From Escherichia coli (GTDB taxonomy: Bacteria > Pseudomonadota > Gammaproteobacteria > Enterobacterales > Enterobacteriaceae): a stretch of DNA of 64,000 bases. Positions 23,804 to 54,899 of this stretch are shown in pieces. Each line of letters begins with the position of its first letter. Positions within the stretch are counted from its first letter, which is position 1. The position numbers and the translations under genes are program-made. The DNA lies in assembly GCF_003334305.1 (NCBI RefSeq), contig NZ_QOWS01000003.1. One strand, 5' to 3'. The notes beneath the pieces are model-generated. The model did not search any database and was not told the origin of the DNA. It worked only from the letters and a program-made list of their open reading frames with translations.

Positions 23804-23840
23804 ATAAAAAAGGCCGGAGCATGCTCCGGCCTTCGTTTTC
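23804..23840. terminator. Bidirectional rho-independent terminator between yjgN and valS
   Basis: Perfect hairpin GGCCGGAGCATGCTCCGGCC flanked by A-run and T-run. Confidence 0.65.
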
Positions 23841-23855
23841 ATTACTGTGTTTTGA

Positions 23856-27287: not shown

Positions 27288-28802
<1,515 letters not shown>

Positions 28803-34213: not shown

Positions 34214-34298
34214 GCCGAAGTGGCGAAATCGGTAGACGCAGTTGATTCAAAATCAACCGTAGAAATACGTGCCGGTTCGAGTCCGGCCTTCGGCACCA
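34214..34298 (+). tRNA. leuX: tRNA-Leu (anticodon CAA)
   Basis: 85-nt sequence GCCGAAGTGGCGAAATCGGTAGACGCAGTTGATTCAAAATCAACC...GGTTCGAGTCCGGCCTTCGGCACCA with long variable arm and encoded CCA. Confidence 0.92.
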
Positions 34299-37435: not shown

Positions 37436-37974
37436 ATCAACACCTCATAGTGAATTCTGTCCAAAACAATCATGTTCAGGTTTTTGATAAATAAAAAGCG
37501 ACTAAATACCACCTCAACATCAGGAGCGGCGATTACTTGGGTACCCGTGGACGAAGTAAAACCCATACGGCATATGTCTTTCAGTTTTTGAGTATCAGGT
37601 ACACCTACTAAGCCTTGGCTCCAGGCACTGAGGACCAGGGTTTTGGGGCAATGATTCCAGCGCTGTGCTGCTTCCAGTAAGTTTTTTAATTTTTCTTCCA
37701 GCTTTTGCTGCCCCTTCGCTGAACCATCAAAGCGTTCAAATTCGATTAAACACACAGGCGATGCAGAAGATTTATGAAACCAGCCCGAGTCAGAGCGAAT
37801 ATCAGCACCAAATGTCCCTGGAGCCGGGCATTCCACTACCGCCATAAATGACTGTTCATGCCCGAATGTATTCCAAACGCTACAGCCCAGGCTGTGGACC
37901 AATACATCCTGGTCCAATAGCTTACCGCTTGCTAAAAGTGGAAATGTCTCATTTACCCAGGCAACTTCAGGCAT
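37432..37974 (-). CDS. Hypothetical protein (about 180 aa; the listed ORF extends to 38031)
   Basis: ORF translationally coupled between the HerA-like gene and the kinase gene; no motif recognised. Confidence 0.5.
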   Translation of the reverse strand: MPEVAWVNETFPLLASGKLLDQDVLVHSLGCSVWNTFGHEQSFMAVVECPAPGTFGADIRSDSGWFHKSSASPVCLIEFERFDGSAKGQQKLEEKLKNLLEAAQRWNHCPKTLVLSAWSQGLVGVPDTQKLKDICRMGFTSSTGTQVIAAPDVEVVFSRFLFIKNLNMIVLDRIHYEVLM

Positions 37975-37981
37975 AGGCACC

Positions 37982-40814: not shown

Positions 40815-40816
40815 GC

Positions 40817-41692
40817 TTATAGCGTTCCTGTGTGTAGCTGCTCGCCAAGTAATGGGGCATAAGCCCAATATTGCGAGGCTTGTAGGCATGTTTTACCGGT
40901 AGCTGTTATGCCCGCGTCGTCGATAAAATCGTGCTGCCGCAACATCTCACCCCGCTTGACAATATCAAGGCTATTAACATCAAACATCAGCTTAACCGCA
41001 TTATGCTCAGACAACGCTTGTAAGTTCATGCCACCGCCAGCGTAGAGTAATAGCAATACAACTAGATCGTGCTTATCTGGCGTGTAGTCAGTTGATGGCG
41101 CTTTAGGTTCGATTATTCGTTCAGCAATGCCTGCATGGTCCACAAACCAATTCAACCAGCTCACCAGGAGCTCACTATGATCGAGTAAAGTCAGCGACCA
41201 CAAAGGTAACGTGGTAAAGGCTAATAGCCCACTGTTGCTGTGTTTTCGTATGTAGCGGGTATGCACTACATCACCGGCCTGGTGCTGGTAGCGATCTGCG
41301 CTGCCAGTAAAGCCAGCAATAGCCTGGTCTGTTTCACTGGCTAGCAAAGCGGTTAGCCCCGGTTCCTGCCCCCTCAAGCTCGCTGGTACTAACTGCCAAT
41401 CCAGTGGATAGGGCAATTGCGCTAATAAGGTAAATTGTTCTGCTTTCAGGTTTATTACCAAAGCGGCACAACCTGCCTGCATAGCCCAGTGATACAGGTG
41501 CTGCATAGTATTAGCGTCAGTCAACTCTTCTGCTTGCACTATTAACAAACCGCTGGCTGGCGGCGAGCTAATCCAATCCTTCATTAAGGGGGTAGCCCCC
41601 GCAACAGTTTGCAAAAAACGGCCTTTACGATTACTGGCCAGTGCCGCAGATAAATAACGACTCATCGCGTCACCTCTACAAACCAGTGGCAA
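40817..41692 (-). CDS. Hypothetical protein (about 290 aa)
   Basis: Coupled ORF overlapping the stop of the 1428-aa gene; no motif recognised. Confidence 0.5.
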   Translation of the reverse strand: MPLVCRGDAMSRYLSAALASNRKGRFLQTVAGATPLMKDWISSPPASGLLIVQAEELTDANTMQHLYHWAMQAGCAALVINLKAEQFTLLAQLPYPLDWQLVPASLRGQEPGLTALLASETDQAIAGFTGSADRYQHQAGDVVHTRYIRKHSNSGLLAFTTLPLWSLTLLDHSELLVSWLNWFVDHAGIAERIIEPKAPSTDYTPDKHDLVVLLLLYAGGGMNLQALSEHNAVKLMFDVNSLDIVKRGEMLRQHDFIDDAGITATGKTCLQASQYWAYAPLLGEQLHTGTL

Positions 41693-44600
41693 AGGTAAGG
41701 CGCATTTTTACAATGCCTTTGTCTACAAGTCCTTTCTGTTGCTCAGGTGTTAACACGGGTTCCTGATTTTGGCTCAAAGCCTTATAAATCGGTTGCCAAT
41801 CCGCCAGTGTTAAGCCTGTATCATTTAATATTTGCTCACCTTGACTCTGCCATTTGGCCTGGGTGCTTTCACACACCTGTTGAAGTTCTCTGACACCCAA
41901 ATTGCTCACATCCTCCAGAGTCAACGCTGCTGGTTCCGCTTGCTTTTGAGAAGCCAATAGCGGTTTTAATAACGGCAGCCAGCTGTTTACCTGTGCGATG
42001 GAGTTGCGTCTTACTTGGTTTAGACGCTCTTCAATTTTAAGTAGCTGGCCTTGAATCGGTGTAAGTTGACCGCGTGCCGGTTTTAAAAGCTCTTCTGGTA
42101 AATCCCGTAACGATGAAAACTGCCCATTGCGCAAACTGTTTTGCATACTTTGACGCTTGCTCTCTGCATCACTGGGGAGATCGGCAATAGCATCTTCAAT
42201 GAGCTGTAATTTCATTACCAGTTTTGGTAGCTCTGCAATGTCATCGGCGAACTGATACTCAGCCGTGGCGCTACTAAGCCATTCTTGCAGTTGTTGTGCA
42301 CGTAGTTTTTGCTCTGTGAGGTTATTAACCAGCTTACTAAATCGTTCTTTGCAGTTGCGGTAGCTGGACAAAATATGCCCCTGAATCTCCGCTATCGGCA
42401 ACTGTTGATCATTGTGCAGGTTTAAACCCACTTCTTGCGCTAAGGCTGAAAGCTTGTCATGCGCTCTACCTAAATCGAGTTTACGCAGGTAATGCAGTAA
42501 GGTATCGCTATCTGCTTGCTGCTCTTTTCGGCCAGTGGCACTGCTGGTATCGTCTTTTAACGCTCCATCTAAAATATGACCTATGGTGCGCAGCGTGTTG
42601 GTGTACAGACGTTTCGGAAAATTCGTCAGCGGGGCACACTCTGTTTCAACATCTATGATTAAATCAACGAGTCGGTTGTTGATACGCTCAGCGCTGCACT
42701 CAACAAACTCGGCAAATAAACAGGCCTGTTCAATCCGTTGATAAAGCGAGGTCGTTTTGTCTTCTAAGCTGAGAATATGGGCATCTTTTAGCATAGGCCT
42801 GGAACTATTAAGCGGTTTAACCTTTGCTACCAGCTCCAGCACTTCAGCGCGTTTGTGGATAAGCCCTGCCAATACTTTCGTGTCGTTGGCCTCGACCATA
42901 TCAGCCAATTGTTCTTCTTGCTGTTTGAGCACGTTAAATAGCGATTGTGCTTTTTCCAGCTGCTCTTTAGCTTCCACGGTGACGAAACCCAGCTTATTTT
43001 TACCCAGTGGCGCGAACATTTCATTAATGCGTGCATAACCATACACGCGGCTCATGACTTCCACATTGGCTGCATAGCTGCCCATATCGTTACCACGGAA
43101 CCAGTTTTGCGCTTCTCTAATGGCATTTTCTAAGCGGGAGCGCGGGTAGTGCTCCCAAATTGCCTGTTTTTCTGTTGGATTGGTTAAAGTGAGTAAGTTC
43201 AGCTCTCCACACCACCACATCCAGTCATTAAACACGCCTTTGGCGGTAACACTCGTTTCAGCCACATAGGCGAAATAAAACTGTTGCTTAAAGCCTTCGA
43301 ATTGCCACTTGTGCTTTTTATTAGGGTGAGCAATACGGGCTAAAAATAATGGGATCTGCGCCTGGCTTCGCTGCACATTATTAAGTTCAGTAAATAGCCC
43401 GGCATGTTCATCGGCAGTGTAACCTTTGGCAATATAGCTGCCCGGCACCTTAAGTTTATCCAACAAGCTGCTCAGCTCATTCACTGGCACGCCGTGTTGC
43501 TGCTGTAAATCGAGAATGCCATTTAACTCAGGGTGAGCAATGGCCAGCTGATACCAGCCTTTAAACAACAGGTCTCGGTCATTCGGTGATAATTTACCAT
43601 CTACCTTTAACGGCCAGGCAATTAAACCGCGCTGCTGCAAACGCTGGCGCCACTTGTGAATGGCATCCGTGGCAAAGGTTGTCAGGGCATGCAGCTTGTT
43701 TTTGAATTTCGCGGTAAAGCTGTCGGCAGTTAAATTCACGCCGTGCAACTGACATGCTGCCAAACTTAAGCCAATACGCTCTAACTGGTCTGCTTCGCTT
43801 GGGTTGACATAATGCAGCAGTATCGCATCACGCAACTCATTTCTTTCATCCAGTCGGCTGTATTGCTCCATGAGATGTGCAGAAGCAGTTAACGCTAATA
43901 CTGGCGTGCGACCATTTTGGTGGCTGTGGTTTGCCGCAAAGGTGTGAAGATTGTTCAGCTCAATTAGGTTGCTGACCCAGGCAAACAAGGCTTTACCTTC
44001 TGGGTGAAGCTTAAATCCATCCAGGGTAAGTAAACCACCCTGGCGGCCACGGGGCTCGGTTAAAATGGCCAAAGGTGCATCGTCGCTGCCCGCTTTATTA
44101 CTCAGCAAGTTTTCATCATAGGTCCAGTTGTTATCAAGTAATCTCACAAAGCCCGTTACACGGGCTAATGCCTTGATGAGCGGCTTCTGGCTACTTTGTT
44201 TGCTAAGTTCACTCATTGCCTGTTCATGAGCGTCGCCCATGGCGGGATCTTTAAAAATCAGTGAGTTTTGCTGGGCACTGCGATAGCGCAAATCCAGGCG
44301 CAGTAACATCGCCACACTGGGGCCAATATGCGTTGCTTCGCTGGCGTCCAGTTCGGTAGTTTCACCCACTAGCTTGTGCCATAAGGCATCGGCAGCGAAT
44401 TCAATCGCTGGGTGGTCATACAGCAAGCTGAGTAAGTATTTAAACTCACCTTTTGACAGAGGTAGTAATACCGCGCCTTTATCGCCGCTTGCGGCTTGTT
44501 CTTTAATTGAAAAAGTACGCAGGTTATCCAGCAAAGTATCTAAGTTCAGCGCTTGATCTACTGCAGGGTAGTACCATTCATCTTTATCGCGGCGGAATTT

Positions 44601-45962
44601 GGCTTGCTCCAGGGCTTGTCGGCACTGTAGGCGGTCAATGCTCAGTTTGCGGTAATGAGCGGCTATGGGTTCCAGATCTTCGTTTTTCAGCGCCAGCAAT
44701 TCTGTGGCATAGCCCATTTCAGCTAAGCGCACGGGTAATTGGCCGTAGAGCAAACTACGACATTCGGTCAATAGTGCCTGGTCGCGAGTTTGAATGCCTT
44801 CTATCGCGCCTTTATCCAGCACATGCCTGGCTACGCGGCCAGAGCCTGCCAGCACAGCTTCAAATAAATCGCCCACATCCTTGATACTGCGGCCTGCTTG
44901 TTGGTATTGGCTCAGCACTGCATCCACATTAGCCATGACCACGTTAAACCAACCGAAGTTGGCACCACTCATGGCGTATGCAGCTTCCACTAAACCAGCA
45001 GGGTAATTAAAACCCAGCTTGCCGTCTTTTAAGAGGCTTGCCACATAGTCTGATACATCGGCAAAGGCATTATGCTCAAGTTCCACTAACTCAAAGCGGC
45101 GTGCGACCGATTGAATTTCGCGCAATTGCTGGCCAAGCAGTGGTGAACACAGCGCTACATAGCGCAACCATGGAAGTTTACGGCGAGGGTCTTCCTCTTT
45201 AATTGCTTTACCAATCAGGCGAATGGCCTGGCCATCGAGGCGTTTATTTTGTTCATCTTCCAGGCCAAAGGTGGCGGCTTCTGCAACGGTTTCCAGCTCA
45301 TCCAGCACCACCAACATATACTGCACGCCAAAGCTCTTTAATACTTTATAGGCGGCTTGCACCAAACTGACTACCAGCGTTTGGTCAGTATAGAGGTCTT
45401 CTTCGCTGTGGTTGGCGTTCAGCTGTAAGGCATCTGCTAACAGTTCAGATTTAAAGCCAAATGGCATTAAGCGTTCATAGGCTTGTTTGGCAATTTCACT
45501 TTGAATCGATCCATCAAAGGTTTGGGTGGCCAGTGGTAATAGCGCCTGATATAAACCAAAAGCAAACCAGTTATCCGAGTTTTGATAATCTGATGCCACT
45601 TGCGAGTAGCGAATGTAGAGCGCCAGGTATTTGTCTTGCGTGTCGCGATTAAACAGCTGCTTATCGTGCAGTTGGCCTTGTTCGTCGCGGACAAACCAGC
45701 CCCTTGAACAGTCGTTAATTTGTGCAACCAATTCATGGCCTAAACGTGATTTACCCCGACCCCATTCGGCTTCGACGGCAAACACATGGGCAAAGCGATC
45801 ATCGTCGTGATCCACCGTATGCAAAAAGGTTTGAAAGCGTTTAAAAAAGCGGCTCTGGCCCACTAACGGGTCGCGAGGTGGATAATCTGATACGCCCGTC
45901 GCCGCCCAGCGATGTTGTTTTGCCAGGCTATCAACCATCTGTTCGTTTAATTCAAAACTCAT
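41676..45962 (-). CDS. Large (1428 aa) P-loop NTPase-domain protein
   Basis: Walker A-like VEAEWGRGKS and Walker B-like YMLVVLDELE in the N-terminal 250 aa; the long remainder has no recognisable motifs; ATGA overlap with the upstream gene. Confidence 0.6.
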   Translation of the reverse strand: MSFELNEQMVDSLAKQHRWAATGVSDYPPRDPLVGQSRFFKRFQTFLHTVDHDDDRFAHVFAVEAEWGRGKSRLGHELVAQINDCSRGWFVRDEQGQLHDKQLFNRDTQDKYLALYIRYSQVASDYQNSDNWFAFGLYQALLPLATQTFDGSIQSEIAKQAYERLMPFGFKSELLADALQLNANHSEEDLYTDQTLVVSLVQAAYKVLKSFGVQYMLVVLDELETVAEAATFGLEDEQNKRLDGQAIRLIGKAIKEEDPRRKLPWLRYVALCSPLLGQQLREIQSVARRFELVELEHNAFADVSDYVASLLKDGKLGFNYPAGLVEAAYAMSGANFGWFNVVMANVDAVLSQYQQAGRSIKDVGDLFEAVLAGSGRVARHVLDKGAIEGIQTRDQALLTECRSLLYGQLPVRLAEMGYATELLALKNEDLEPIAAHYRKLSIDRLQCRQALEQAKFRRDKDEWYYPAVDQALNLDTLLDNLRTFSIKEQAASGDKGAVLLPLSKGEFKYLLSLLYDHPAIEFAADALWHKLVGETTELDASEATHIGPSVAMLLRLDLRYRSAQQNSLIFKDPAMGDAHEQAMSELSKQSSQKPLIKALARVTGFVRLLDNNWTYDENLLSNKAGSDDAPLAILTEPRGRQGGLLTLDGFKLHPEGKALFAWVSNLIELNNLHTFAANHSHQNGRTPVLALTASAHLMEQYSRLDERNELRDAILLHYVNPSEADQLERIGLSLAACQLHGVNLTADSFTAKFKNKLHALTTFATDAIHKWRQRLQQRGLIAWPLKVDGKLSPNDRDLLFKGWYQLAIAHPELNGILDLQQQHGVPVNELSSLLDKLKVPGSYIAKGYTADEHAGLFTELNNVQRSQAQIPLFLARIAHPNKKHKWQFEGFKQQFYFAYVAETSVTAKGVFNDWMWWCGELNLLTLTNPTEKQAIWEHYPRSRLENAIREAQNWFRGNDMGSYAANVEVMSRVYGYARINEMFAPLGKNKLGFVTVEAKEQLEKAQSLFNVLKQQEEQLADMVEANDTKVLAGLIHKRAEVLELVAKVKPLNSSRPMLKDAHILSLEDKTTSLYQRIEQACLFAEFVECSAERINNRLVDLIIDVETECAPLTNFPKRLYTNTLRTIGHILDGALKDDTSSATGRKEQQADSDTLLHYLRKLDLGRAHDKLSALAQEVGLNLHNDQQLPIAEIQGHILSSYRNCKERFSKLVNNLTEQKLRAQQLQEWLSSATAEYQFADDIAELPKLVMKLQLIEDAIADLPSDAESKRQSMQNSLRNGQFSSLRDLPEELLKPARGQLTPIQGQLLKIEERLNQVRRNSIAQVNSWLPLLKPLLASQKQAEPAALTLEDVSNLGVRELQQVCESTQAKWQSQGEQILNDTGLTLADWQPIYKALSQNQEPVLTPEQQKGLVDKGIVKMRLTFATGL

Positions 45963-47260
45963 AACGACGATCCTTGAAGGTTTATTCTATTGGCGGCGCG
46001 TTTTTTATTGGCATAGCAGTTTTGCGCCAGTTGCTTAATGGTCCGTTGTAACGTTTGGCTTTTGTAGCCAAATAGTGGTGCTAACGGCAGGCTATAACAG
46101 GCATCGCTGAAGCTTGTATGAATTCGATATTGGCCGGCCTCTCCACGACCCGCCTCGGTAAATTGCCAGATTTTTTTTGCCAACAATTCGGCAATGAATG
46201 AGCTCAGGACGCGGTTTAGGCGGTTGATGCTTTCCGTGTTCGCATCGAGTGCCGGGTAGAGGGGTATATTGAGCTCACCGAGCAGAAGCACAAGAAACTC
46301 GGCCAAACTACCCAGACTCACCTCATCACCTTCAATGCCCTGTACCGCCACATTTATTTGACCGGGGGCAAAGGCATTTTGCCCGGCAGGTAAGGTGAGC
46401 AACAAACCGCCACGTTGCTCGGCAGCCCAGGCATCTTGCACAAAGATAATTAGACTGAGTAAAAATAACCAGGGCTGTTGGGCGAATAGCTCGGTAAGCG
46501 GCATGTTGTCATGACCCGAGCGGGACACCAATAACCAATCGGCATTGGGTTTAAGGTTATGTTCATCAAGCAAGGTATTAGGGAGTGCTAACAACCGCCC
46601 ACTACACCAGTTATTTGTCAGTTGTTTTGCGGTGACATCCACCGCTTGTATAGGTGCCGGTGGTTCATTTTGTTCGCTCACGGTAAACAAGGTATAGCTG
46701 GTGCGCAAAATACGACATAGCGCGGGAATGGCAGCATTGTCGTTTAGGCTATGACCGAGCAAATCGCGTTCGGTTTGTGCCAGAGGGCCGGCAATGATTT
46801 GCGGCGTGGTGGCAGTGCTTTCCAGCTGGGCTAAGACCCATTCACTGGCATTGCCCAGTTGCTGAATGAGTTTAACCAATACCATTGTGTCACTCATCGT
46901 GCCTGCTTCCTGGCAGCGAGCGGCGGCTAAATTGATCCAATGTTGGCGAACATCTGGGTTTAAGCCCAACAACGCTAATTGCCATTCACCTGACTGGCTT
47001 AAATCGTTAAAGGCATCAAGCAATGGTGCAGTGAGGCTAAAGGCGCTAACGATATCCGTTTCAGCGTCGTTCTTTTTCGGCTGTATTATTGGTTGTAGCA
47101 GTGACCTAAGGGCAGGCACAGCCGCCAATAACAATGCTGCTTTGTTGGCGTTCAAACCACCTTGTTGCCAAAGCTGCAGGCAGAGGTTAAGTGCCGCTTC
47201 GCTATTTACGGGGTCGTTATATTGCCTGGTTGTACTGCTGTCCGTGCCCCTTGTCTCCAT
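45959..47260 (-). CDS. Hypothetical protein (433 aa)
   Basis: Coupled ORF between the HsdS-like gene and the 1428-aa gene; no motif recognised. Confidence 0.5.
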   Translation of the reverse strand: METRGTDSSTTRQYNDPVNSEAALNLCLQLWQQGGLNANKAALLLAAVPALRSLLQPIIQPKKNDAETDIVSAFSLTAPLLDAFNDLSQSGEWQLALLGLNPDVRQHWINLAAARCQEAGTMSDTMVLVKLIQQLGNASEWVLAQLESTATTPQIIAGPLAQTERDLLGHSLNDNAAIPALCRILRTSYTLFTVSEQNEPPAPIQAVDVTAKQLTNNWCSGRLLALPNTLLDEHNLKPNADWLLVSRSGHDNMPLTELFAQQPWLFLLSLIIFVQDAWAAEQRGGLLLTLPAGQNAFAPGQINVAVQGIEGDEVSLGSLAEFLVLLLGELNIPLYPALDANTESINRLNRVLSSFIAELLAKKIWQFTEAGRGEAGQYRIHTSFSDACYSLPLAPLFGYKSQTLQRTIKQLAQNCYANKKRAANRINLQGSSL

Positions 47261-47262
47261 CT

Positions 47263-48741
47263 TTACTCTTCAGCCTCCGCTTGCGCCGCCTCTTCCAGCA
47301 AACTGTATAACTCATCCACATCGCTAAATAGCGGTGTGGCACCTTCAATGGCATAACCCTCAGCGCTCAGTTTGCTTAAAATCGCTTGATCAAAGCTGCT
47401 GTCGCCATCTTCCAGGGCTTGTTGGGCCTGGATTAGTTGTTGCTCAGTCAGTTGGCCTTCGATTAATGACTCAACTAGAGTTTTGGCAGATGCTGTTAAC
47501 TTTTTTGCATATGCTGCCGTAGTAACGGCTAGTCTCAGCTTACTTCCTATTTCTCTATTCTTCGCTATGTCAATCGGAATCAGAATATTTAACAGGTTTT
47601 CTGAAGTCACTTTTGGTACAACGCTGCCAGTAGTCACACCTTTCCAACACGGAAAGTGTTTATCCAGGAACCTACAAATAGACTCAATATCATATTCATC
47701 TTTTACCTTTAAAACCCAAACATGGTTGTTTGCCCAAAACTTTCCATCAGCTACATTTGCACAGCCAATAGAGCCATCTTGCGCAATAATCAGATATTTA
47801 CCGTTGAAATTGAATTCGGTATGAGTATCTATTGGACCTGATGCGCCATAGTAAAAATATGGTCCGGGTACTCTGTCTTCCGATTTAATAGGGTCGCCAC
47901 ATTTGCATTTACTAATGAAATTAGATAGTTTTGATGAATTCCTAAAGGTCATTTGACTATCGGCCGCACGTGCAAACTCAGGAGCTAAAGACACTGCTGA
48001 TAATACCTGTTGTTTCATTCTTCTAGGTTTCAATGTTAATGAATCAACAAGGTTGAAGTGAAATAAATCTTTAATTTTTCTATCAGCCATTCCTTCAAGT
48101 CGTTTCGCCCAAGCGCGTAACTGCTCGGCTTGGCGAACTTTATCCCCGATGTATTTTTGGGCTAGAGGTAAAACTTTAGGAACCGCTAGCGAGCGGACAC
48201 TTGGGAAGTCAATTGCAGGGCGAGTTGCGCCATATGCTTCCTTCCAGATCGCTACTTGTCCGGTTTTGCTATTCAAATATGCCACCAAGAAATAGGCGTC
48301 AACTTTTTTGGGATCGGGCTTGAATCTGACTGAGTGCTGACTAATGTTGGCCGGTAGATGTTTAGCTGACACAACAGCCGATTTACCAAATTTTGCACCA
48401 GTAATCGTAAGTAAAACGTCGCCATCCACTAATCGGCTGCGCTTTAATTTTTCATCATCTTCATCGTTAATAAAAACAGCTTCTTCAGCTTGCAAGAACA
48501 TTTCTTCAACTTCAGAAGTGCGATAAAACTTAACACGGCCTTTTTCTAAATAATTTGCTCCTAAAGGTGTTGCGCCACTAGCCACCCCGCGCTTTGAATC
48601 AATTACCGCTTCTAGGGGCAAAGCACCTAGGTTGTCTTTTATCTTATTAATTTGTCTTTCAAATCGCGGTTGATAGTGCCAAGGATCAATCCGCCTTTCA
48701 GACAATTGTTCGGGTGTTCTTTTAAAAATAGTTGCCATCAC
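47263..48741 (-). CDS. hsdS: Type I restriction-modification specificity subunit (HsdS-like, two target-recognition domains)
   Basis: Two TRD-like halves (RIDPWHYQP...GDVLLTITGAKFGKSAVV; VPGPYFYYGASGPIDT...) separated by a conserved helical spacer (LAVPKVLPLAQKYIGDKVRQAEQL) with a C-terminal helical region; 4-nt overlap with the MTase gene. Confidence 0.7.
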   Translation of the reverse strand: MMATIFKRTPEQLSERRIDPWHYQPRFERQINKIKDNLGALPLEAVIDSKRGVASGATPLGANYLEKGRVKFYRTSEVEEMFLQAEEAVFINDEDDEKLKRSRLVDGDVLLTITGAKFGKSAVVSAKHLPANISQHSVRFKPDPKKVDAYFLVAYLNSKTGQVAIWKEAYGATRPAIDFPSVRSLAVPKVLPLAQKYIGDKVRQAEQLRAWAKRLEGMADRKIKDLFHFNLVDSLTLKPRRMKQQVLSAVSLAPEFARAADSQMTFRNSSKLSNFISKCKCGDPIKSEDRVPGPYFYYGASGPIDTHTEFNFNGKYLIIAQDGSIGCANVADGKFWANNHVWVLKVKDEYDIESICRFLDKHFPCWKGVTTGSVVPKVTSENLLNILIPIDIAKNREIGSKLRLAVTTAAYAKKLTASAKTLVESLIEGQLTEQQLIQAQQALEDGDSSFDQAILSKLSAEGYAIEGATPLFSDVDELYSLLEEAAQAEAEE

Positions 48742-50885
48742 TCACCCCGCTTATAAGCCGATACAATCTTATCCAGATCGTTTGCGACACCGGCGTTATA
48801 GTCTTCGATATTGTTTTTCACCACATAACCCAATGTTTCAGCCACTGCCATAAACACGTCGGTTTGTGGCTCGGGCAAAAATTGCTCTGGCTGGTTGGGG
48901 TTAGCATGGCGTTTTTGTAAATACAAAATCGAGGTTTTGGCCCCCGTACCGGAGAGTTTAAAGCAGTCGCTCGGCAATGAAATTACTGCTTTTACAATAG
49001 CTTTACCGCCAACAAACTCGCCGGTTTTTTCGTCTTTTTTCCCCATAATGTACTCACGGACATAACGGTCGCCGGAGTTACATAAAATACCATCAGGCAG
49101 CACTATTAACAGGCGGCCACCGGGTTTAAGCAGTTGCAGGCAGCGGTCGATAAAAAGTACTGCTGGGTCAATAGTGGCACCTACCGGTTGCCAGTTGCCC
49201 TTGCTATCGGGCTTGCTGCCCAGCGCGAGCCCTGCGGTTGTAGGCTGCAGGCTGTAAAACGGCTTTTTATCAGTCCCGCCCGTTCTGCGCAAATCGGTAC
49301 GGTAGCCCGCCCATTTAGGCTCGCCGTTTTCATCCAGCTCTAAATCACCGATATCCTGCCACTTCATTTTCACGTGGTCATACCAGGCGTTGTAGCTATC
49401 AACGACTTTTTTGGTCGGACGAAAACCACCGAGCACTTGCTCCATATTGGCTTCGTAATTGGCTTTTGAGTTTTGACCATTTTTGCCTTTATCAAATTTA
49501 GGCGTACCGAACGGCGGGTTGGTGCAAATCAGGTCAAAGCTATTCGGCTTCAGAGCGTTAGTAGTGAGTGAGTTGTCGGTATAAAAAATCTGCGCTTTGG
49601 GGGCACCTTGCAATGCCATATTCACGCGGGCCAGCATTACCATGCGTGGTGCAGCATCGGCACCGGTAAATGCACAGTCGCGTAATTTTTGTTTCAATGA
49701 TTCTTTTTTATCGTCGGCCAGCACCAGCTTAAAATCGATCCATTTATCAATCTGGCTTAACGCCACCGAGCCAAAACCAAAGGAGCCACAGGTGGGGTCG
49801 CAGAAACGAAAATCGCCATTGGCTAAGCGCGATCGCATTTCATCGTCATCGTCGATGTCGTGCATAGCAATTTCTAGCATGGCCTGTTTTACTGGGTTTG
49901 GTGTTAAATAAACGCCAAGGCCACCTTTGGATTCAAAGTTAGCGCGTAGGAATACATCAAACACTCTGCCTAGTAAATCTCCTGACACATCAGCCAACGT
50001 GCCGTGTTCTTTCGCGATTTTACCGTCGTTGGTTTTTACCGGACCCAGGTTTTGTATTGCTTCCAGCAAATCCTGATAGTTTTTCGCAACAGACAGTCGC
50101 AGGTGTGTTTCTTTACTAAAGATGGGGTTACGTGAGCCATCATCTGAGATCACAACGTAGTTTTCGTGGCTTTTAAATTCCTCAAAGGCGGCTTTGATTT
50201 GGGCAACGGCTTTATCGCCGTGGCTCTCCACATATTGCCAATCAAAGACATCACGAAAACGCAGGGTATTTCCCTCATCATCTTTAAAGGTAAGGTCTTC
50301 ATCGTGATGCAGGCGGAAAGTTTCTAAAAACAGAAGCTTAGCTACTTCTTCAATAATGTCGTTCTTGTCGTTTACCTTGTCTTTGGTAACGCGATAAACA
50401 TTTTCATGGAAGGCATCAAATCGCTGCATTAAGCGTGTATAAACACGCATCGACCAGCGAAAGGTTGGATCACGCTCCATGCGATCAAAGCTACGTAATT
50501 CTTCCAGACCAGGCAGGGTATCTGCACCGTGGGTACCGTCAGATCCATCGGCACCGAACAAGGCCAAAATACGTTGGTTCAAGCCATCGTCCACAACGGC
50601 ATATACTGGCCAGTCACCTTCGATATCACTTAACAGCTGATAGGCTAAATCATCAAACTTTGCAGTGTCAGCGGCGTATTCCCAATGGCCTTCTGTCAGC
50701 GCAATCAACATGACTGGTGGCGTTAAGTTGCCTTCAACCAGGCCTTGAATGAGACCAGCCTTGGCGAATTCATGCTCGGGTAATTCGACCAATGGCTGAG
50801 TAAACTCGGAGTGCTGTTTGACCAGTTTATTGAACAGTGCTTCTAGCTGCTGTTGCGGGTCTTGTTTTTTTGCTTCTTTTGCCAT
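48738..50885 (-). CDS. hsdM: N6-adenine DNA methyltransferase, type I HsdM-like (715 aa)
   Basis: AdoMet motif I FRFCDPTCGSFGF, motif IV DLICTNPPFG, motif X region GVYLTPNPVKQAMLEI, C-terminal GRLLIVLPDGIL. Confidence 0.75.
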   Translation of the reverse strand: MAKEAKKQDPQQQLEALFNKLVKQHSEFTQPLVELPEHEFAKAGLIQGLVEGNLTPPVMLIALTEGHWEYAADTAKFDDLAYQLLSDIEGDWPVYAVVDDGLNQRILALFGADGSDGTHGADTLPGLEELRSFDRMERDPTFRWSMRVYTRLMQRFDAFHENVYRVTKDKVNDKNDIIEEVAKLLFLETFRLHHDEDLTFKDDEGNTLRFRDVFDWQYVESHGDKAVAQIKAAFEEFKSHENYVVISDDGSRNPIFSKETHLRLSVAKNYQDLLEAIQNLGPVKTNDGKIAKEHGTLADVSGDLLGRVFDVFLRANFESKGGLGVYLTPNPVKQAMLEIAMHDIDDDDEMRSRLANGDFRFCDPTCGSFGFGSVALSQIDKWIDFKLVLADDKKESLKQKLRDCAFTGADAAPRMVMLARVNMALQGAPKAQIFYTDNSLTTNALKPNSFDLICTNPPFGTPKFDKGKNGQNSKANYEANMEQVLGGFRPTKKVVDSYNAWYDHVKMKWQDIGDLELDENGEPKWAGYRTDLRRTGGTDKKPFYSLQPTTAGLALGSKPDSKGNWQPVGATIDPAVLFIDRCLQLLKPGGRLLIVLPDGILCNSGDRYVREYIMGKKDEKTGEFVGGKAIVKAVISLPSDCFKLSGTGAKTSILYLQKRHANPNQPEQFLPEPQTDVFMAVAETLGYVVKNNIEDYNAGVANDLDKIVSAYKRGE

Positions 50886-50935
50886 GATGTTTTCTAAAAT
50901 CCTTTAATACAGCCAATGGTTACTACAAATGCCGG

Positions 50936-51322
50936 CTAATTTATCAGTACCAGCAAGGGGCCTTTAATCTCTATCTGCGCGTGCTTCTGTGCCAGTTTGC
51001 GTATCTGCTGTTCACTGGTCGTAATACCAGCAGGGAGCTTTTTCAGTACTTGTGCAAGGGGCATGCGCCCACCAGCTTGATGCAACAATGATACCAAATG
51101 TGCCGCGATATCAGGTATAACCTGGTACGTTGCCGTTGTGGGCCCTTTTAGATGATTACTTTGAGGCAATGAGGCAAGCCATAGCGAAACTTGAGACTGG
51201 CTAAAGCCAAGTGTTTGCCAGAGGGTTTGGTTCTCATTAAATACAACGGCGGCGCTTCTGGGAGTTGCTGTTTGCTGAGTTATTAGTTGTTCCAGGCTTT
51301 GTCGCTGGTATTCATGGGTCAT
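50936..51322 (-). CDS. Hypothetical protein (128 aa), third gene of the McrBC-like module
   Basis: ORF whose start overlaps the McrC-like stop by 4 nt; no motif recognised. Confidence 0.45.
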   Translation of the reverse strand: MTHEYQRQSLEQLITQQTATPRSAAVVFNENQTLWQTLGFSQSQVSLWLASLPQSNHLKGPTTATYQVIPDIAAHLVSLLHQAGGRMPLAQVLKKLPAGITTSEQQIRKLAQKHAQIEIKGPLLVLIN

Positions 51323-52662
51323 CTCATGCCTCCACTATAGGATACTGAAGCAGCCATCCGATCCAGTTTGGGGCTCATTGTACAGGACACGTCATTCGGC
51401 CACATCATCCTCTCACCGCGTTTTGCCATTATCCGGTATGGCACAACCCATAATTTTAAAGTCTCCGAGAAAGCAAAATGCTGCGCTATAGGTTGGCTAA
51501 AGTCATCATGCGCAGGGTAAATCAGATACATTTCGCCATTCCCACCAAGATATTTTTGTCCGTAGGCAAACATTTGATAGAAGTCAGCTTGTGCCAGTCC
51601 ATAGAGTGATTTTGTCTGCTGGCTGCTATTCACCAGCTTCCATTTTGTATCCATCACCATTTCGGTTTGAACTGGTTTGTGTGATTGAATCAGCAAGTCG
51701 GGGCGAAGCTTAAAGCAATCTTTAAGTCCATGCTTTACCAAAGAATAAGTTGCTGCTTGAGGTAAAACTTTGAGGTGAGGTGGTAACTCGTCGGGTAGGG
51801 TCTGTGCCACAAAGGATTCAAATACCGCTTCCATAGGGAACAAAAGTGATATCGCTTTGGTGTTTCCCTGCAAAGCACTCGGGCTCATTCCCCTCAGGAT
51901 CAATTGCGCCCATGCCATTGGCTCGTTGTAATGAGCCATACCACGCTCGAGGCGTAAGTTGTTTATATCACGTTCAATATCCCGGCTAAGTGGAATACCG
52001 TCAAACGCAAAACGCAGTTCGTAAAGCCAGCGTTGATTATCTGATGACAGCTGCAGACTAAGAAGCTTATCTAGTGCGGAGTGTAAGAGCCGATTGGCTG
52101 CACAATCAGGCATGTAGTCATCATAATCGACACAAAACTTATGGCGATTCACCGCGTTATGTCGCAGCTGTGCAGAAAGCATCAGCTTGCCCTTCATAAA
52201 AGCCAGATTACCTTGCTTGCTCACATAGTCGGAGCGTAAACCCTGTTTAAGCAATTGGCTGACGCTATGCAAAAACTGGTTAATAAAAATCTCAAGCAAA
52301 GGCATACGCTGAGCCTGAAGAGTGGCTTGCTGGGTTTGAATATGTCGGAACCCAGGCAGATGGCTTAGCATCGTCAGCAATGTTTGACGTGCATTAGCCG
52401 CTGTGAGGTTTTTACCAACCTTGGGCAGTATCTCAAGCTGGAAACCGTGAGGTGTTGAAAGCATCCCTGCGTAGTTTTGAACCTGAAGCAATTTGAAGCC
52501 TGAGCGAGAGGTGAGTTTGAGGAACTGGCTCCCTTGATTACTTGCCAGGCTAAGCGCTTCTAAATAATTAAAGACCTGTGGAGGCACCGGTTTTGCGCCA
52601 ACTGAAGCCGCTTTTCCACTCCCCAAGAGGTCATATTCAAAAACGGAGATAACTTCACCCAT
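51319..52662 (-). CDS. McrC-like endonuclease subunit (PD-(D/E)xK)
   Basis: C-terminal RPDLLIQ...VMDTKWK...QADFYQMFAYGQKY resembles the McrC catalytic core; 8-nt overlap with the McrB-like gene. Confidence 0.65.
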   Translation of the reverse strand: MGEVISVFEYDLLGSGKAASVGAKPVPPQVFNYLEALSLASNQGSQFLKLTSRSGFKLLQVQNYAGMLSTPHGFQLEILPKVGKNLTAANARQTLLTMLSHLPGFRHIQTQQATLQAQRMPLLEIFINQFLHSVSQLLKQGLRSDYVSKQGNLAFMKGKLMLSAQLRHNAVNRHKFCVDYDDYMPDCAANRLLHSALDKLLSLQLSSDNQRWLYELRFAFDGIPLSRDIERDINNLRLERGMAHYNEPMAWAQLILRGMSPSALQGNTKAISLLFPMEAVFESFVAQTLPDELPPHLKVLPQAATYSLVKHGLKDCFKLRPDLLIQSHKPVQTEMVMDTKWKLVNSSQQTKSLYGLAQADFYQMFAYGQKYLGGNGEMYLIYPAHDDFSQPIAQHFAFSETLKLWVVPYRIMAKRGERMMWPNDVSCTMSPKLDRMAASVSYSGGMR

Positions 52663-54730
52663 GATTTACTGCCTGCTCATCAAGGGGAGTCTGTTGGGGC
52701 TGATAAATTGAACGATAAGCCTGTGGAATATTCCAGATCTCTTGATCGAAATCTTTGAGCTCATAAGCTGTTGATTGCTGATCATGGCGTCGTAAACCAT
52801 GGTTGTTACCAAAAAGCGTATCGAGATCGTCGGTTTTCTCAATCACGAATTGCAGGTTGTCGTCTTGCTTTTGATTGTCTGCCAGCACCAACCGGATCTT
52901 GTTCCAGTCATCGAAAAAGTATTCCTGTAAAAGCGGAATGATCTTTTTCTGGAATGCGATCTTCAATTGTTTAAACGCAGCTTCTTCATCACCGGCATCG
53001 AGTGCATTTTTTACCGGCATAAAGAACGCATGCCCCAGCGTATGTTCACGATCGTAAAGAGCCTCGATGCGGCTATTGAGTTTCTCTAACAACGACTCGA
53101 GCTCTATGCCTTTCACCTTAGCTTCACTCAGTAAAGAGAGATCAGGCATCATTTCGACAAAGTCAAAGCGACGGCGCAAAGCCGTGTCCATCAGAGCTAA
53201 AGAACGGTCCGCTGTATTCATGGCTCCGATGATATCGACATTGCCGGGTACGCTGAAGTGATCACCGCTATAAGCCAGTTGCAGGCTCATCGCATTGGGC
53301 ATGCCTGCACGCTTGTCTACTTCAATGAGTGAGATTAGTTCACCAAAGATCTTGGATATGTTACCGCGATTGATCTCATCAATGAAAATGGCGTAGCGAT
53401 GTCCTGGATCGGCATTCGCACGTTGGCAAAGGCGCATAAAGATACCCGGCTCAATGGGATAAGAGATATTGCCACTCTCGTCAGAGCGAGCGCGTATACC
53501 TTCAATAAATTCTTCATAGCCGTAAGATTGGTGGAACGTAACCACCGCAAAACGCTGGATGGCTTCGGCAGATTTAGGGCCACGTTTAAGTTCGGCGTAG
53601 AGCTCTACCAAATCCTCCACTTGCTCGAGCTGTGAATCAACTAGAAACCATTCGCTGTTATCTGTTTTGTTAAATACGGCAGGCTCACGCCGATTCTTAT
53701 AATCAACGGTTAACGACTCGGGAACTGTATAGGATTGCAAAGCTGCCCAGGCAGTATTCGATAGATTGCCATTACGACCGTTTAATAATGCCTTACGTTG
53801 AAACCACATATGTTCAATAATTTGGCGAACTTTCGCTCGTTTCCCAAGATCGAGCAGCACCAGCGTTATAACCTGCATCCAGTTCAACGATTCAAGGCGA
53901 GAATCCAGCCAGGCATCACGATCAGCGGGAACAGCATGAGAAGTGTACTCTTTCATTTTTTGCTGCAACCTGAAGGTCTTGCCAGTGCCAGGGGGGCCAA
54001 AGAAGATCACGTTAGTTGGTGAATGTAGGATGATCTTGTTCTCGATGGGCTCACTGCGGGTTATGGATGTAGTGCTAGCTACTTTCTCCTGCTTTTGTTC
54101 ATTATCGCGTTCACGGAGCAATTCATAGAGATGCCAGATGGCCATATTCACATAATAAGGATCTGTATCAGGAGATTGGGCGTGTATGGCTTGTTTCAAT
54201 TCATAGTTTTTCTGTAACCAATTTCCGGTCAGTACCAAACCGAGATGGAAGTGCTGATTTAAGAATTCTGCTGCTTTATTAAAAGCATTCTCATCCACAG
54301 TACTGGTGTAGTTTTCTGGCGAGAACGCGGCAAAGACGCGATTTCTCAAACTCCAATACATACGCTTGAGAAGTCCGTTTTCTTTAGCTTGTTGAAGTGC
54401 ATTGCCAACATATTGGTAAGTTTCTTCATCCGGCTGTTGCCGAATTCGTTCAGTTAGTTCTCTAAGCAGTGGCAGGCTTTGCTGATATTCTGCTAAGGAT
54501 GGAACGCCCTGGCGAATACTTGCAATGCCGTTGTCACGCTCATACCAAAGCTGTTTGACCAGACCATCTGTTGCAGGCTCAGCAAAAGTTGAGGTTTGCT
54601 GTAGCAAAGTCGTAAATGCACGGTATCGCTGATACCATCTGGAAGCTGTGTAATTTTTATCTTTCGCCAGGGCATCAATCAATTCACTAATCGTTAGCCT
54701 ACCTGCTTCGACACTATCTACAAGAGTCAT
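52655..54730 (-). CDS. McrB-like AAA+ GTPase with unassigned N-terminal domain of about 230 aa
   Basis: FFGPPGTGKTF, IFIDEINRGNISKIFGEL and IIGAMNTADRS motifs typical of McrB-family GTPases; the N-terminal region has no recognisable motifs. Confidence 0.75.
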   Translation of the reverse strand: MTLVDSVEAGRLTISELIDALAKDKNYTASRWYQRYRAFTTLLQQTSTFAEPATDGLVKQLWYERDNGIASIRQGVPSLAEYQQSLPLLRELTERIRQQPDEETYQYVGNALQQAKENGLLKRMYWSLRNRVFAAFSPENYTSTVDENAFNKAAEFLNQHFHLGLVLTGNWLQKNYELKQAIHAQSPDTDPYYVNMAIWHLYELLRERDNEQKQEKVASTTSITRSEPIENKIILHSPTNVIFFGPPGTGKTFRLQQKMKEYTSHAVPADRDAWLDSRLESLNWMQVITLVLLDLGKRAKVRQIIEHMWFQRKALLNGRNGNLSNTAWAALQSYTVPESLTVDYKNRREPAVFNKTDNSEWFLVDSQLEQVEDLVELYAELKRGPKSAEAIQRFAVVTFHQSYGYEEFIEGIRARSDESGNISYPIEPGIFMRLCQRANADPGHRYAIFIDEINRGNISKIFGELISLIEVDKRAGMPNAMSLQLAYSGDHFSVPGNVDIIGAMNTADRSLALMDTALRRRFDFVEMMPDLSLLSEAKVKGIELESLLEKLNSRIEALYDREHTLGHAFFMPVKNALDAGDEEAAFKQLKIAFQKKIIPLLQEYFFDDWNKIRLVLADNQKQDDNLQFVIEKTDDLDTLFGNNHGLRRHDQQSTAYELKDFDQEIWNIPQAYRSIYQPQQTPLDEQAVNHG

Positions 54731-54899
54731 CGTGACTTTTCCTCTGTTGTGACATTACTTATTTTTTAATTAATATGAGGTATTCTAACTATATTGAGTT
54801 AATCGTTGTGACAAGTGCCTGTTATATATACAACTATCTGTTAACTCAGCTCTAATTTAAATACAATGTAAGGTTGTAGGGTGAATGCTGTTATCAACC

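What the first reader, a model, noticed from the sequence alone, without database searches (positions are those of the whole stretch)
50936..54730. McrBC-like GTPase/nuclease pair with a divergent N-terminal domain and a third coupled gene, directly upstream of the MTase operon
The 691-aa protein has the McrB GTPase signature (GPPGTGKT, DEINR, MNTADRS), but its first roughly 230 residues, where K-12 McrB carries its modified-DNA reader, are unrelated to anything I recognise. The next gene has a McrC-like PD-(D/E)xK core (PDLLIQ...MDTKWK), and a 128-aa ORF is coupled to it by a 4-nt overlap. The module ends 50 bp before the hsdM-like start on the same strand, so it could be transcribed together with the MTase operon. 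That is reminiscent of R-M systems that use McrBC-like proteins as the restriction component, but it could equally be an independent type IV system.
Basis: partly seen in the sequence, partly recalled or inferred. Interest (0 to 1): 0.6.

Follow-up and report, generated by a model that had tools for sequence, protein, structure and literature searches.

The report
McrBC cassette fused to MADS-like operon
This is an ordinary, widespread McrBC-type restriction gene pair that has landed directly in front of a separate multi-gene "MADS-like" methylation-based defence operon in the E. coli leuX defence island; the supposed third McrBC gene is really a gene of that neighbouring operon.

Summary
The described sequence features are all present.

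- **McrBC pair:** the 691-aa and 447-aa proteins are a genuine McrB GTPase and McrC PD-DxK nuclease. RefSeq already annotates them this way in 1015 of 5426 complete E. coli genomes.
- **Separable cassette:** about 590 of those genomes carry the same pair (McrB 97% identical) beside an Alw26I-family type IIS R-M system. Others carry it alone. In neither case is the 128-aa gene or this MTase operon present.
- **The 128-aa gene:** it encodes a winged-helix protein. In all 14 taxa examined it sits directly upstream of the 715-aa MTase, S subunit and the 433-aa and 1428-aa genes. Seven of those taxa, all non-enteric, have no McrBC next to it. It belongs to the downstream operon.
- **The downstream operon:** it is a MADS-like system (kinase, HerA-type ATPase, MTase, S), not a type I R-M. 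In Vibrio and Pseudoalteromonas a MAD1 helix-turn-helix gene precedes the 128-aa gene. In Enterobacterales mcrBC occupies that position.
- **The ATGA overlap:** it comes from loss of the McrC stop codon.
- **McrB domains:** the N-terminal 220 residues are an uncharacterised all-helical domain. A 122-residue winged-helix insertion follows the Walker A helix.

Co-transcription is plausible. Functional dependence of the two modules is unproven.

The parts
54731..54899 (-). Upstream non-coding region of mcrB. The proximal ~95 nt, including the Shine-Dalgarno sequence, travel with the cassette and are the presumed location of its own promoter.
   Evidence: Alignment of the mcrB upstream regions from three E. 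coli contexts plus Ewingella, Pantoea and Rosenbergiella. The Pantoea (MADS-like context) upstream ~200 nt is nearly identical to that of the stand-alone and type IIS-linked E. coli cassettes. No consensus sigma-70 site scored at least 9 of 12 on the minus strand here, so the promoter is inferred, not shown.
52655..54730 (-). mcrB-like gene, 691 aa: an AAA+ GTPase of the NxxD McrB clade.
   Evidence: Walker A, Walker B, NxxD and RRRF motifs are visible in the translation. Matches AAA_5, NCBIfam McrB at 148 bits, below the K-12 equivalog cut-off of 637, and PDB 6UT3, 6UT5 and 6HZ4. Homologs carry the Pfam McrB_lid domain PF28529.
54068..54730 (-). McrB N-terminal domain (aa 1-221): all-alpha, uncharacterised family, presumed target-recognition or adaptor domain.
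53552..53917 (-). Winged-helix insertion (aa 272-393) inside the AAA+ domain, between the Walker A helix and strand beta2.
51319..52662 (-). mcrC-like gene, 447 aa, with an intact PD-DxK nuclease motif (D322, D338, K340).
   Evidence: Full-length Pfam McrBC PF10117 match, E 2e-96. NCBIfam McrC at 95 bits, below the K-12 equivalog cut-off of 338. PDB 6UT5_G, E 5.5e-18.
51319..51378 (-). 19-codon C-terminal extension of McrC (MSPKLDRMAASVSYSGGMR) plus its stop codon. It was created by loss of the ancestral stop and produces the ATGA overlap.
   Evidence: McrC is 428 aa in the two other E. coli contexts. The DNA alignment shows a stop codon at that position in the stand-alone cassettes and in Rosenbergiella, which also keeps a ~190-nt spacer.
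50936..51322 (-). 128-aa gene encoding a small helical domain plus a winged helix. It is the second gene of the ancestral MADS-like operon, not part of McrBC.
50886..50935 (-). 50-nt spacer between the 128-aa gene and the MTase gene, with no terminator.
35966..50885 (-). Context: the rest of the MADS-like operon. Gene order is MTase 715 aa, S 492 aa, 433 aa, 1428 aa, 291 aa, 410 aa, HerA-type ATPase 561 aa, 199 aa, Ser/Thr kinase 489 aa.
   Evidence: PADLOC and NCBIfam hits: mad2, mad5, mad6 (E 1e-45) and mad8/HerA. All are below the NCBIfam MADS equivalog cut-offs. The gene order matches the 'MADS-like' madl3-madl11 description in Maestri et al..

Best explanation
The locus is two separable defence modules fused head-to-tail in the leuX defence island.

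Module 1 is mcrB-mcrC, a self-contained McrBC-family (type IV-like) restriction cassette with its own upstream region.
- By analogy with solved McrBC complexes, McrB should form a GTP-driven AAA+ ring and recruit McrC, whose intact PD-DxK site cuts DNA.
- Target recognition is probably supplied by the uncharacterised all-alpha N-terminal domain, possibly helped by a clade-wide winged-helix insertion in the AAA+ domain.
- The target, presumably a DNA modification not made by E. coli Dam, Dcm or the neighbouring MTases, is unknown.

Module 2 starts at the 128-aa winged-helix gene and runs through the MTase, S subunit, 433-aa, 1428-aa, 291-aa and 410-aa genes, a HerA-type ATPase, a 199-aa gene and a Ser/Thr kinase. 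This is a MADS-like methylation-based system.
- Its ancestral form begins with a MAD1 helix-turn-helix gene followed by the 128-aa gene.
- In the island variant circulating in Enterobacterales, mcrBC sits where mad1 and its promoter region would be.
- Loss of the McrC stop codon then produced a 19-codon extension and the ATGA overlap.

The MADS-like genes are therefore probably transcribed at least partly by read-through from the mcrBC promoter.

Shown here: family membership, domain anatomy, separability of the two modules, and the origin of the overlap.
Inferred: the promoter, co-transcription, the DNA target, and modification dependence.
For: McrBC membership:
- Motifs are visible in the translation.
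- PF10117 matches McrC over its full length.
- McrB matches NCBIfam and PDB McrB entries.

Separability of McrBC:
- 1015 of 5426 complete E. coli genomes carry the pair, but only 268 carry any part of the MADS-like block.
- 589 genomes have McrC contiguous with an Alw26I/Eco31I/Esp3I-family R-M system.
- Another context is a thrW island with no adjacent R-M.
- McrB is 97% and 93% identical across these contexts, including the N-terminal domain.
- More distant relatives that share the N-terminal domain are always paired with a McrC and lie next to type I or type III-like R-M systems.

Separability of the MADS-like operon:
- The 128-aa gene is always directly upstream of the MTase.
- No adjacent McrBC is present in Vibrio (two species), Pseudoalteromonas (two species), Rheinheimera, Hahellaceae or Shewanella.
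- A MAD1 equivalog (88.7 bits, cut-off 80) lies directly upstream of the 128-aa gene in four of these loci.

Junction:
- Searches show the stop-codon loss and the Rosenbergiella spacer.
- The cassette carries its own conserved 5' region.
- No terminator lies between the modules.

Literature:
- McrBC systems frequently neighbour type I R-M systems and MTases (PMC11090510).
- leuX is E. coli defence hotspot 37 (PMC12707154).
- MADS and MADS-like systems are described in bioRxiv 10.1101/2023.03.30.534895.
Against: - No recognised modified-base reader (DUF3578/SRA-like, YTH, EVE, or a B3 domain) is detectable in McrB, so modification dependence is assumed, not shown.
- I could not identify a nuclease in the MADS-like operon by sequence. 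The 410-aa and 1428-aa proteins have no Pfam or PDB matches. A recruited external nuclease therefore cannot be excluded.
- The mcrBC/MADS-like arrangement is conserved across at least seven enterobacterial genera or species. It has been tightened to an overlap in most of them. That could reflect selection for co-expression.
- In Shewanella a different type IV enzyme (Mrr) sits 10 nt upstream of the 128-aa gene. This may hint at a recurrent functional pairing.
- In K. pneumoniae NUH66 an HsdM/HsdS pair with 'complete McrBC upstream' restricts plasmids site-specifically, and the restriction subunit is unidentified (PMC12456054).
Confidence: 0.7

Rival explanations
1. LlaJI-like reading. In Enterobacterales the McrBC pair has become the restriction arm of the downstream MTase/S system. 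M/S marks self DNA and specifies sites. McrB-McrC, co-translated with the operon, translocates on and cleaves unmethylated DNA.
For: - Tight linkage, same strand, no terminator, and an ATGA overlap into the operon.
- The arrangement is conserved in Klebsiella, Ewingella, Pantoea, Erwinia, Rosenbergiella and Escherichia.
- mcrBC sits where the operon's first gene, mad1, would otherwise be.
- No nuclease is recognisable in the MADS-like genes.
- K. pneumoniae NUH66 shows active HsdS-dependent restriction with no HsdR and with McrBC upstream (PMC12456054).
- LlaJI is a precedent for McrBC-like proteins acting on unmodified DNA (PMC12707154).
Against: - The same operon, with MTase and 1428-aa protein 85-91% identical, exists without any adjacent McrBC in seven non-enteric taxa. 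It must therefore have its own effector.
- A 97%-identical McrB, N-terminal domain included, serves in about 590 E. coli genomes with no such MTase/S.
- S subunits differ widely among McrBC-linked loci (32-87% identity) while McrB stays at 82-91%.
- The McrB N-terminus is all-alpha, unlike the LlaJI B3 domain.
- MADS in P. aeruginosa works without McrBC.
Confidence: 0.12
2. The 128-aa protein is a genuine third component of McrBC, acting as a regulator or DNA-binding accessory. It is translationally coupled to McrC.
For: - 4-nt ATGA overlap with mcrC.
- Winged-helix fold.
- In E. coli the gene is present wherever this McrBC variant (at least 99% identical) occurs.
Against: - It is absent from about 700 E. 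coli genomes that carry a 91-95% identical mcrBC.
- It is present with the MTase operon and without McrBC in seven taxa.
- The overlap is a derived stop-codon loss and is absent in Rosenbergiella.
- The MAD1 gene precedes it in the ancestral arrangement.
Confidence: 0.04
3. The McrBC pair is a decaying passenger with no current function, kept only by linkage in a defence island.
For: - No known reader domain is detectable.
- Some E. coli genomes have IS insertions in or next to it, for example Nissle-type strains with ISEc52 and strain AR_0061 with IS21.
Against: - Both ORFs are intact, with all catalytic motifs, in about 970 E. coli genomes and many other genera.
- Protein identity of 82-97% across genera with the ORFs maintained.
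- In strains where the MADS-like genes are deleted, mcrBC is retained at 100% identity.
Confidence: 0.05

Closest known systems
EcoKMcrBC (E. coli K-12 type IV restriction system) and T. gammatolerans McrBC (PDB 6UT3-6UT8)
   Same: - Two overlapping genes.
- McrB AAA+ GTPase with Walker A, Walker B, the NxxD signature, an arginine-rich RRRF segment and a lid domain.
- McrC with the DUF2357/PF10117 domain and a PD-DxK nuclease.
- The best PDB sequence hits are these proteins.
   Different: - Scores are far below the K-12 equivalog cut-offs: 148 versus 637 for McrB and 95 versus 338 for McrC.
- The N-terminal domain is all-alpha and matches neither the K-12 5mC reader nor the T. gammatolerans YTH-like domain at the sequence level.
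- A 122-residue winged-helix domain is inserted after the Walker A helix. T. gammatolerans McrB lacks it in the residue-level alignment. For K-12 McrB only the matched ranges (query 389-611) indicate this.
- The target is unknown.
MADS and 'MADS-like' systems (Maestri et al., bioRxiv 10.1101/2023.03.30.534895)
   Same: - The downstream operon has an N6-adenine MTase, an S subunit, a HerA-type ATPase and a Ser/Thr kinase, with HTH genes at its start.
- The gene order matches the described 11-gene MADS-like system (madl3 MTase, madl4 S, madl6 ATPase, madl9 HerA, madl11 kinase).
- Escherichia is the commonest genus for MADS hits.
- A true MAD1 equivalog heads the operon in Vibrio relatives.
   Different: - All window proteins fall below the NCBIfam MADS equivalog cut-offs.
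- There is no MAD1 gene in the window. mcrBC occupies that position.
- The 128-aa, 433-aa, 1428-aa, 291-aa, 410-aa and 199-aa proteins have no MADS model hits.
- I could not compare directly with the P. aeruginosa madl sequences.
LlaJI / BsuMI-type R-M systems that use McrB- and McrC-like subunits on unmodified DNA
   Same: McrB-like and McrC-like genes sit next to, and co-oriented with, DNA MTase genes.
   Different: - The pair here is found without those MTases in most E. coli carriers.
- The N-terminal domain is helical, not a B3-type beta-barrel.
- The adjacent MTase belongs to a larger system that exists without McrBC elsewhere.
K. pneumoniae NUH66 'type I-like R-M without HsdR, McrBC upstream' (Oo et al. 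2025, PMC12456054)
   Same: Klebsiella loci L022-L024 have exactly this arrangement: McrB 691 aa, McrC 447 aa, 128 aa, MTase 717 aa, S ~491 aa, then 428/433-aa and 1428-aa genes. This matches the paper's schematic description.
   Different: - Sequence identity with NUH66 itself could not be verified. The accessions were not retrievable.
- The paper does not mention the downstream ATPase, HerA or kinase genes, or MADS.

Membership tests
McrBC family (type IV restriction) | McrB-type AAA+ GTPase with Walker A, Walker B and the NxxD signature | tested here: met
   GPPGTGKT, DEINR and NTAD are in the translation. AAA_5 match. NCBIfam McrB E 3e-43. PDB 6UT3 E 6e-55.
McrBC family (type IV restriction) | Adjacent McrC with the DUF2357/McrBC domain and a PD-(D/E)xK nuclease motif | tested here: met
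   PF10117 matched over positions 1-318 of 318, E 2e-96. D322...D338-T-K340 present. 8-nt overlap with mcrB.
McrBC family (type IV restriction) | N-terminal domain of McrB that reads a modified base (DUF3578, YTH, EVE and similar) | tested here: inconclusive
   The N-terminal 221 residues are a confident all-alpha fold with no match to any known reader. A reader function is neither shown nor excluded.
McrBC family (type IV restriction) | GTP-dependent cleavage of modified DNA only | not testable with these tools
   Needs biochemistry or restriction assays.
EcoKMcrBC orthologs (NCBIfam equivalogs NF008457 and NF007277) | Score above the curated equivalog cut-off | tested here: not met
   McrB 148.1 bits versus 637. 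McrC 95 bits versus 338.
MADS sensu stricto (mad1-mad8), for the downstream operon | MAD6 kinase, MAD7 DptG-like protein and MAD8 HerA-like ATPase (the mandatory set in the authors' model), plus MAD2 MTase and MAD5 S subunit | tested here: inconclusive
   - PADLOC mad6 E 1e-45 and mad8 E 7e-26; weaker mad2 and mad5 hits.
- NCBIfam equivalog cut-offs are not reached: 111.6 versus 720, 90 versus 400, 116.9 versus 460.
- No MAD7, MAD3 or MAD4 hit.
- The best description is 'MADS-like'.
MADS sensu stricto (mad1-mad8), for the downstream operon | MAD1 HTH gene at the head of the operon | tested here: not met
   No MAD1 in the window by tblastn. It is present above cut-off (88.7 versus 80) directly upstream of the 128-aa gene in the Vibrio relative, and by tblastn in three further non-enteric loci.
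LlaJI-type McrBC-dependent R-M | The McrB/McrC-like pair is obligatorily linked to its cognate MTases and recognises unmodified sites through a B3-type domain | tested here: not met
   The pair occurs without this MTase/S in about 700 E. coli genomes. The N-terminal domain is all-alpha.
Type I R-M | HsdR helicase-nuclease subunit encoded with HsdM and HsdS | tested here: not met
   None of the 14 island proteins scanned hits an HsdR/REase_I model. The MTase is 715 aa with an atypical long N-terminus.

The most novel reading that the evidence does not exclude
In the Enterobacterales version of the island, replacing mad1 with mcrBC and fusing the reading frames created a true hybrid. McrBC would be co-expressed with the MADS-like MTase/S complex and physically recruited by it, serving as its DNA-cleaving arm on unmethylated target sites. 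This would identify the 'missing HsdR' of the K. pneumoniae NUH66 type I-like system. It would also be a second, independent origin, after LlaJI, of a modification-blocked McrBC enzyme.
Probability: 0.12. Interest if true: 0.7.

Novelty: new member of a known kind. Interest (0 to 1): 0.33.

Why it matters
**Annotation.** The 128-aa gene should be assigned to the MADS-like operon, not to McrBC. The "orphan HsdMS next to McrBC" seen in E. coli and Klebsiella should be read as a 10-gene MADS-like system.

**An experimental puzzle.** Oo et al. (2025) could not identify the restriction subunit of a K. pneumoniae "type I-like" system. This analysis points to the unmentioned downstream ATPase, HerA and kinase genes as the first candidates, with McrBC as a testable second.

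**The McrBC pair itself.**
- It is present in about 19% of complete E. coli genomes, including Nissle-type B2 strains.
- It belongs to a very large McrB clade with a winged-helix insertion in the AAA+ domain and an uncharacterised helical N-terminal domain.
- Its DNA target is unknown. Defining that target would fill a gap for a common E. coli restriction barrier relevant to phage therapy and plasmid transfer.

None of this is a new kind of system.

Tried and rejected
- **TGTCACAAC repeat.** Two copies lie upstream of mcrB (54746 and 54805). I considered them as an operator. The count is not significant (8 of 100 shuffles give at least 2) and the motif is not conserved in other cassettes. Rejected.
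- **Natural deletions as a test.** E. coli strain 41 and similar strains lost MTase through the 291-aa gene but kept mcrBC and the 128-aa gene. The S subunit is deleted too, and an r-m- state is viable in type I-like systems. This shows only that mcrBC is tolerated alone, so it is not decisive.
- **N-terminal-domain-only protein search.** It returned only truncated McrB fragments. No new domain architectures were found.
- **Extra ~145-aa domain in longer relatives.** It carries the motif LLxWNP...GDxVYL...RG..KG and looked EVE/PUA-like by eye. It has no Pfam or PDB support and remains an untested lead.
- **Nuclease in the MADS-like operon.** Pfam and PDB searches of the 410-aa and 1428-aa proteins found nothing.
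- **Link to NUH66 and SGH07 accessions.** The listing of cluster members failed twice and no supplementary files are held for the paper.
- **Promoter scan.** It found fewer sigma-70-like sites than chance (6 versus 17 expected) and none at the junctions. It neither supports nor excludes an internal promoter.

Full report
**Setting.** The window is E. coli chromosome. The region is 100% identical to strain C5 (NZ_CP010122). The finding lies in the island integrated at tRNA-Leu leuX (tRNA at 34214-34295; integrase at 34646-35764), next to nanC/nanM and fim. This is the known E. coli defence "hotspot 37" (PMC12707154).

All island genes are on the minus strand. In order of transcription they are:

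| Coordinates | Product |
|---|---|
| 54900-55829 | Phosphorothioate-DNA-binding HNH endonuclease (NF045808, 437 bits) |
| 52655-54730 | McrB-like, 691 aa |
| 51319-52662 | McrC-like, 447 aa |
| 50936-51322 | 128-aa ORF |
| 50886-50935 | 50-nt gap |
| 48738-50885 | MTase, 715 aa |
| 47263-48741 | S subunit, 492 aa |
| 45959-47260 | 433-aa protein |
| 41676-45962 | 1428-aa protein |
| 40817-41692 | 291-aa protein |
| 39657-40889 | 410-aa protein |
| 37982-39667 | HerA-type ATPase, 561 aa |
| 37432-38031 | 199-aa protein |
| 35966-37435 | Ser/Thr kinase, 489 aa |

**Check of the observation.**
- The three McrB motifs and the McrC PD...DxK motif are in the translations.
- mcrB and mcrC overlap by 8 nt. 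mcrC and the 128-aa ORF overlap by 4 nt (ATGA).
- The gap to the MTase start is exactly 50 nt.
- HMM evidence is strong. McrC matches Pfam PF10117 end to end (E 2e-96). McrB matches AAA_5, NCBIfam McrB (E 3e-43) and the solved McrB structures 6UT3/6UT5 (E about 1e-54) and 6HZ4 (E 6e-40). McrC matches 6UT5 chain G.
- Both proteins score far below the curated K-12 equivalog cut-offs (148 versus 637; 95 versus 338). They are family members, not EcoKMcrBC orthologs.
- RefSeq already calls them "McrB family protein" and "McrC family protein".

**Anatomy of McrB.**
- The alignment to T. gammatolerans McrB shows a clean insertion of about 122 residues (aa 272-393) between the Walker A helix and strand beta2. 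Pfam AAA_5 is correspondingly split.
- An AlphaFold2 model of residues 1-395 has mean pLDDT 84.6. It gives a confident all-alpha N-terminal domain (aa 1-221, ten helices) and a winged-helix-like fold for the insertion.
- A search of 1.84 billion cluster representatives found 25,824 relatives. Most of the top 150 align across residues 235-680 in one stretch. The winged-helix insertion therefore marks a large McrB clade with variable N-termini.
- About 17 of the top 150 share this N-terminal domain, some with up to 500 further residues in front of it.
- That pattern fits the N-terminal region being the specificity module. This is an inference.

**Is the McrBC pair tied to the MTase operon? No.**
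- In E. coli, 1015 of 5426 complete genomes carry the pair. Only 268 carry any part of the downstream block, 207 of them nearly complete.
- In 589 genomes McrC is contiguous with an Alw26I/Eco31I/Esp3I-family type IIS R-M system with two MTases and an endonuclease. Examples are strain Ecol_448 and Nissle-type strains.
- In another context (strain EC1515) the pair sits among IS elements in a thrW island.
- Across these contexts McrB is 97% and 93% identical, N-terminal domain included, and McrC is 91% and 89% identical.
- The cassette carries its own conserved upstream region.
- None of these other contexts has the 128-aa gene. There McrC is 428 aa.
- More distant relatives sharing the N-terminal domain are always paired with a McrC. 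They lie next to a type I or a type III-like R-M system. This is the general defence-island pattern reported for McrBC (PMC11090510).

**Where does the 128-aa gene belong? To the downstream operon.**
- Its homologs (52-99% identity, gammaproteobacteria only) were located in 14 taxa.
- In every case the gene lies 50-90 nt upstream of a 714-717-aa MTase, followed by an S subunit and 428-446-aa, 1428-aa and ~282-aa genes.
- McrBC is directly upstream only in Enterobacterales: E. coli, Escherichia sp., Klebsiella, Ewingella, Pantoea, Erwinia and Rosenbergiella.
- It is absent in Vibrio (two species), Pseudoalteromonas (two species), Rheinheimera and a Hahellaceae genome.
- Shewanella has an Mrr-type enzyme 10 nt upstream. 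It also has an unrelated McrBC (45-56% identical) 3.4 kb away, behind an opposite-strand gene.
- In four of the non-enteric loci, a 60-aa HTH gene lies immediately upstream of the 128-aa gene. In Vibrio it passes the NCBIfam MAD1 equivalog cut-off (88.7 versus 80 bits). No such gene exists in the window.
- The ancestral operon is therefore mad1, 128-aa gene, MTase, S and so on. In Enterobacterales mcrBC sits where mad1 and its promoter region would be.

**Origin of the "coupling".**
- The DNA alignment of the junction shows that stand-alone cassettes, and the Rosenbergiella locus, have a stop codon after codon ~428.
- Rosenbergiella keeps a spacer of about 190 nt before the 128-aa gene.
- In E. 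coli, Ewingella, Pantoea and Erwinia the stop is lost. Nineteen extra codons are read until a TGA that overlaps the ATG of the 128-aa gene, which has its own GGAGG Shine-Dalgarno sequence.
- The overlap is real but derived. It is not evidence of a three-gene McrBC module.

**The downstream operon.**
- PADLOC and NCBIfam link the kinase (mad6, E 1e-45), the HerA-type ATPase (mad8), the MTase (mad2) and the S subunit (mad5) to MADS. All are below the equivalog cut-offs.
- The gene order matches the 11-gene "MADS-like" system of Maestri et al. Those authors also report Escherichia as the commonest MADS genus. They note type IV R-M and DUF2357 genes in the same Pseudomonas islands.
- I could not identify its nuclease. 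The 410-aa and 1428-aa proteins have no Pfam or PDB matches.
- Klebsiella loci have the identical arrangement. This matches the description of K. pneumoniae NUH66: an active, HsdS-dependent, site-specific "type I-like" restriction system with no HsdR and a "complete McrBC cluster upstream" (PMC12456054). That paper does not mention the downstream genes or MADS. I could not verify sequence identity with NUH66.

**Co-transcription.**
- No terminator-like hairpin lies between mcrC, the 128-aa gene and the MTase.
- The 50-nt junction is less structured than shuffled controls (z = +2.27).
- The ancestral mad1 region, which presumably held the promoter, is gone.
It is not shown.

**Verdict.** This is a widespread, already annotated McrBC-family cassette. 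It has an uncharacterised helical N-terminal domain and a clade-typical winged-helix insertion. It is fused upstream of a MADS-like operon. The 128-aa gene belongs to that operon. The modules are separable in nature. Functional integration in Enterobacterales is not excluded (about 12%) and is directly testable. Interest is modest.

Noticed in passing
window 54900-55829 (-): Directly upstream of mcrB is a phosphorothioated-DNA-binding HNH restriction endonuclease (NCBIfam NF045808, 436.8 bits against a cut-off of 180). This is a third modification-dependent-type nuclease in the same island. RefSeq annotates it as 290 aa, and an HNH pseudogene fragment follows it in strain C5.
   Followed up: partly
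window 35966-50885 (-): The nine genes downstream of the 128-aa gene form a MADS-like system with no HsdR. Klebsiella loci L022-L024 have the same layout. This probably explains the 'type I-like R-M without HsdR' reported for K. pneumoniae NUH66. That paper does not mention the 1428-aa, HerA or kinase genes.
   Followed up: partly
L002 (E. coli strain 41) 17454-18086; also MS6193, Ecol_224, KSC9: Some E. coli genomes have internal deletions. They removed most of the MTase gene (strain 41 keeps only its first ~211 codons), S, the 433-aa, 1428-aa and 291-aa genes and part of the 410-aa gene. mcrBC, the 128-aa gene, herA and the kinase remain intact. About 60 of 268 carriers have less than 80% of the block.
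   Followed up: partly
L006 9038-9991; L018 7531-9943; L005 4152-9682: The position just upstream of the 128-aa gene or mad1 is occupied by different defence genes in different taxa: Mrr-type type IV enzyme (Shewanella, 10-nt gap), a DS1-like YejK-related pair (Rheinheimera), Wadjet/JetABCD (Vibrio) and TniQ-type genes (Hahellaceae). It looks like a recombination hot spot.
   Followed up: partly
relatives P0210, P0234, P0228, P0231, P0235, P0241, P0268 (alignment A7): McrB relatives that share the helical N-terminal domain carry an additional conserved ~145-aa domain in front of it (LLxWNP...W.C...GDxVYL..RG..KG...P.Q.W.....SG..I). It has no Pfam or PDB match. It may be the true base reader in those proteins and is absent from the window protein.
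   Followed up: partly
L022-L024 5238-6173; L003 24454-24708: A family-2 glycosyltransferase gene lies about 420 nt upstream of mcrB in Klebsiella. A remnant of one lies upstream of mcrB in E. coli B2 strains, so the mobile unit may once have included it.
   Followed up: no
window 18001-24000: GC content drops to 0.37-0.47 against about 0.52 in the flanks. This suggests another horizontally acquired segment, unrelated to the finding.
   Followed up: no
window 10598-10713, 28047-28241, 345-422: Rfam matches above gathering score: Mg riboswitch (RF01056), Ysr276 antisense RNA (RF02850) and naRNA4 (RF02564).
   Followed up: no
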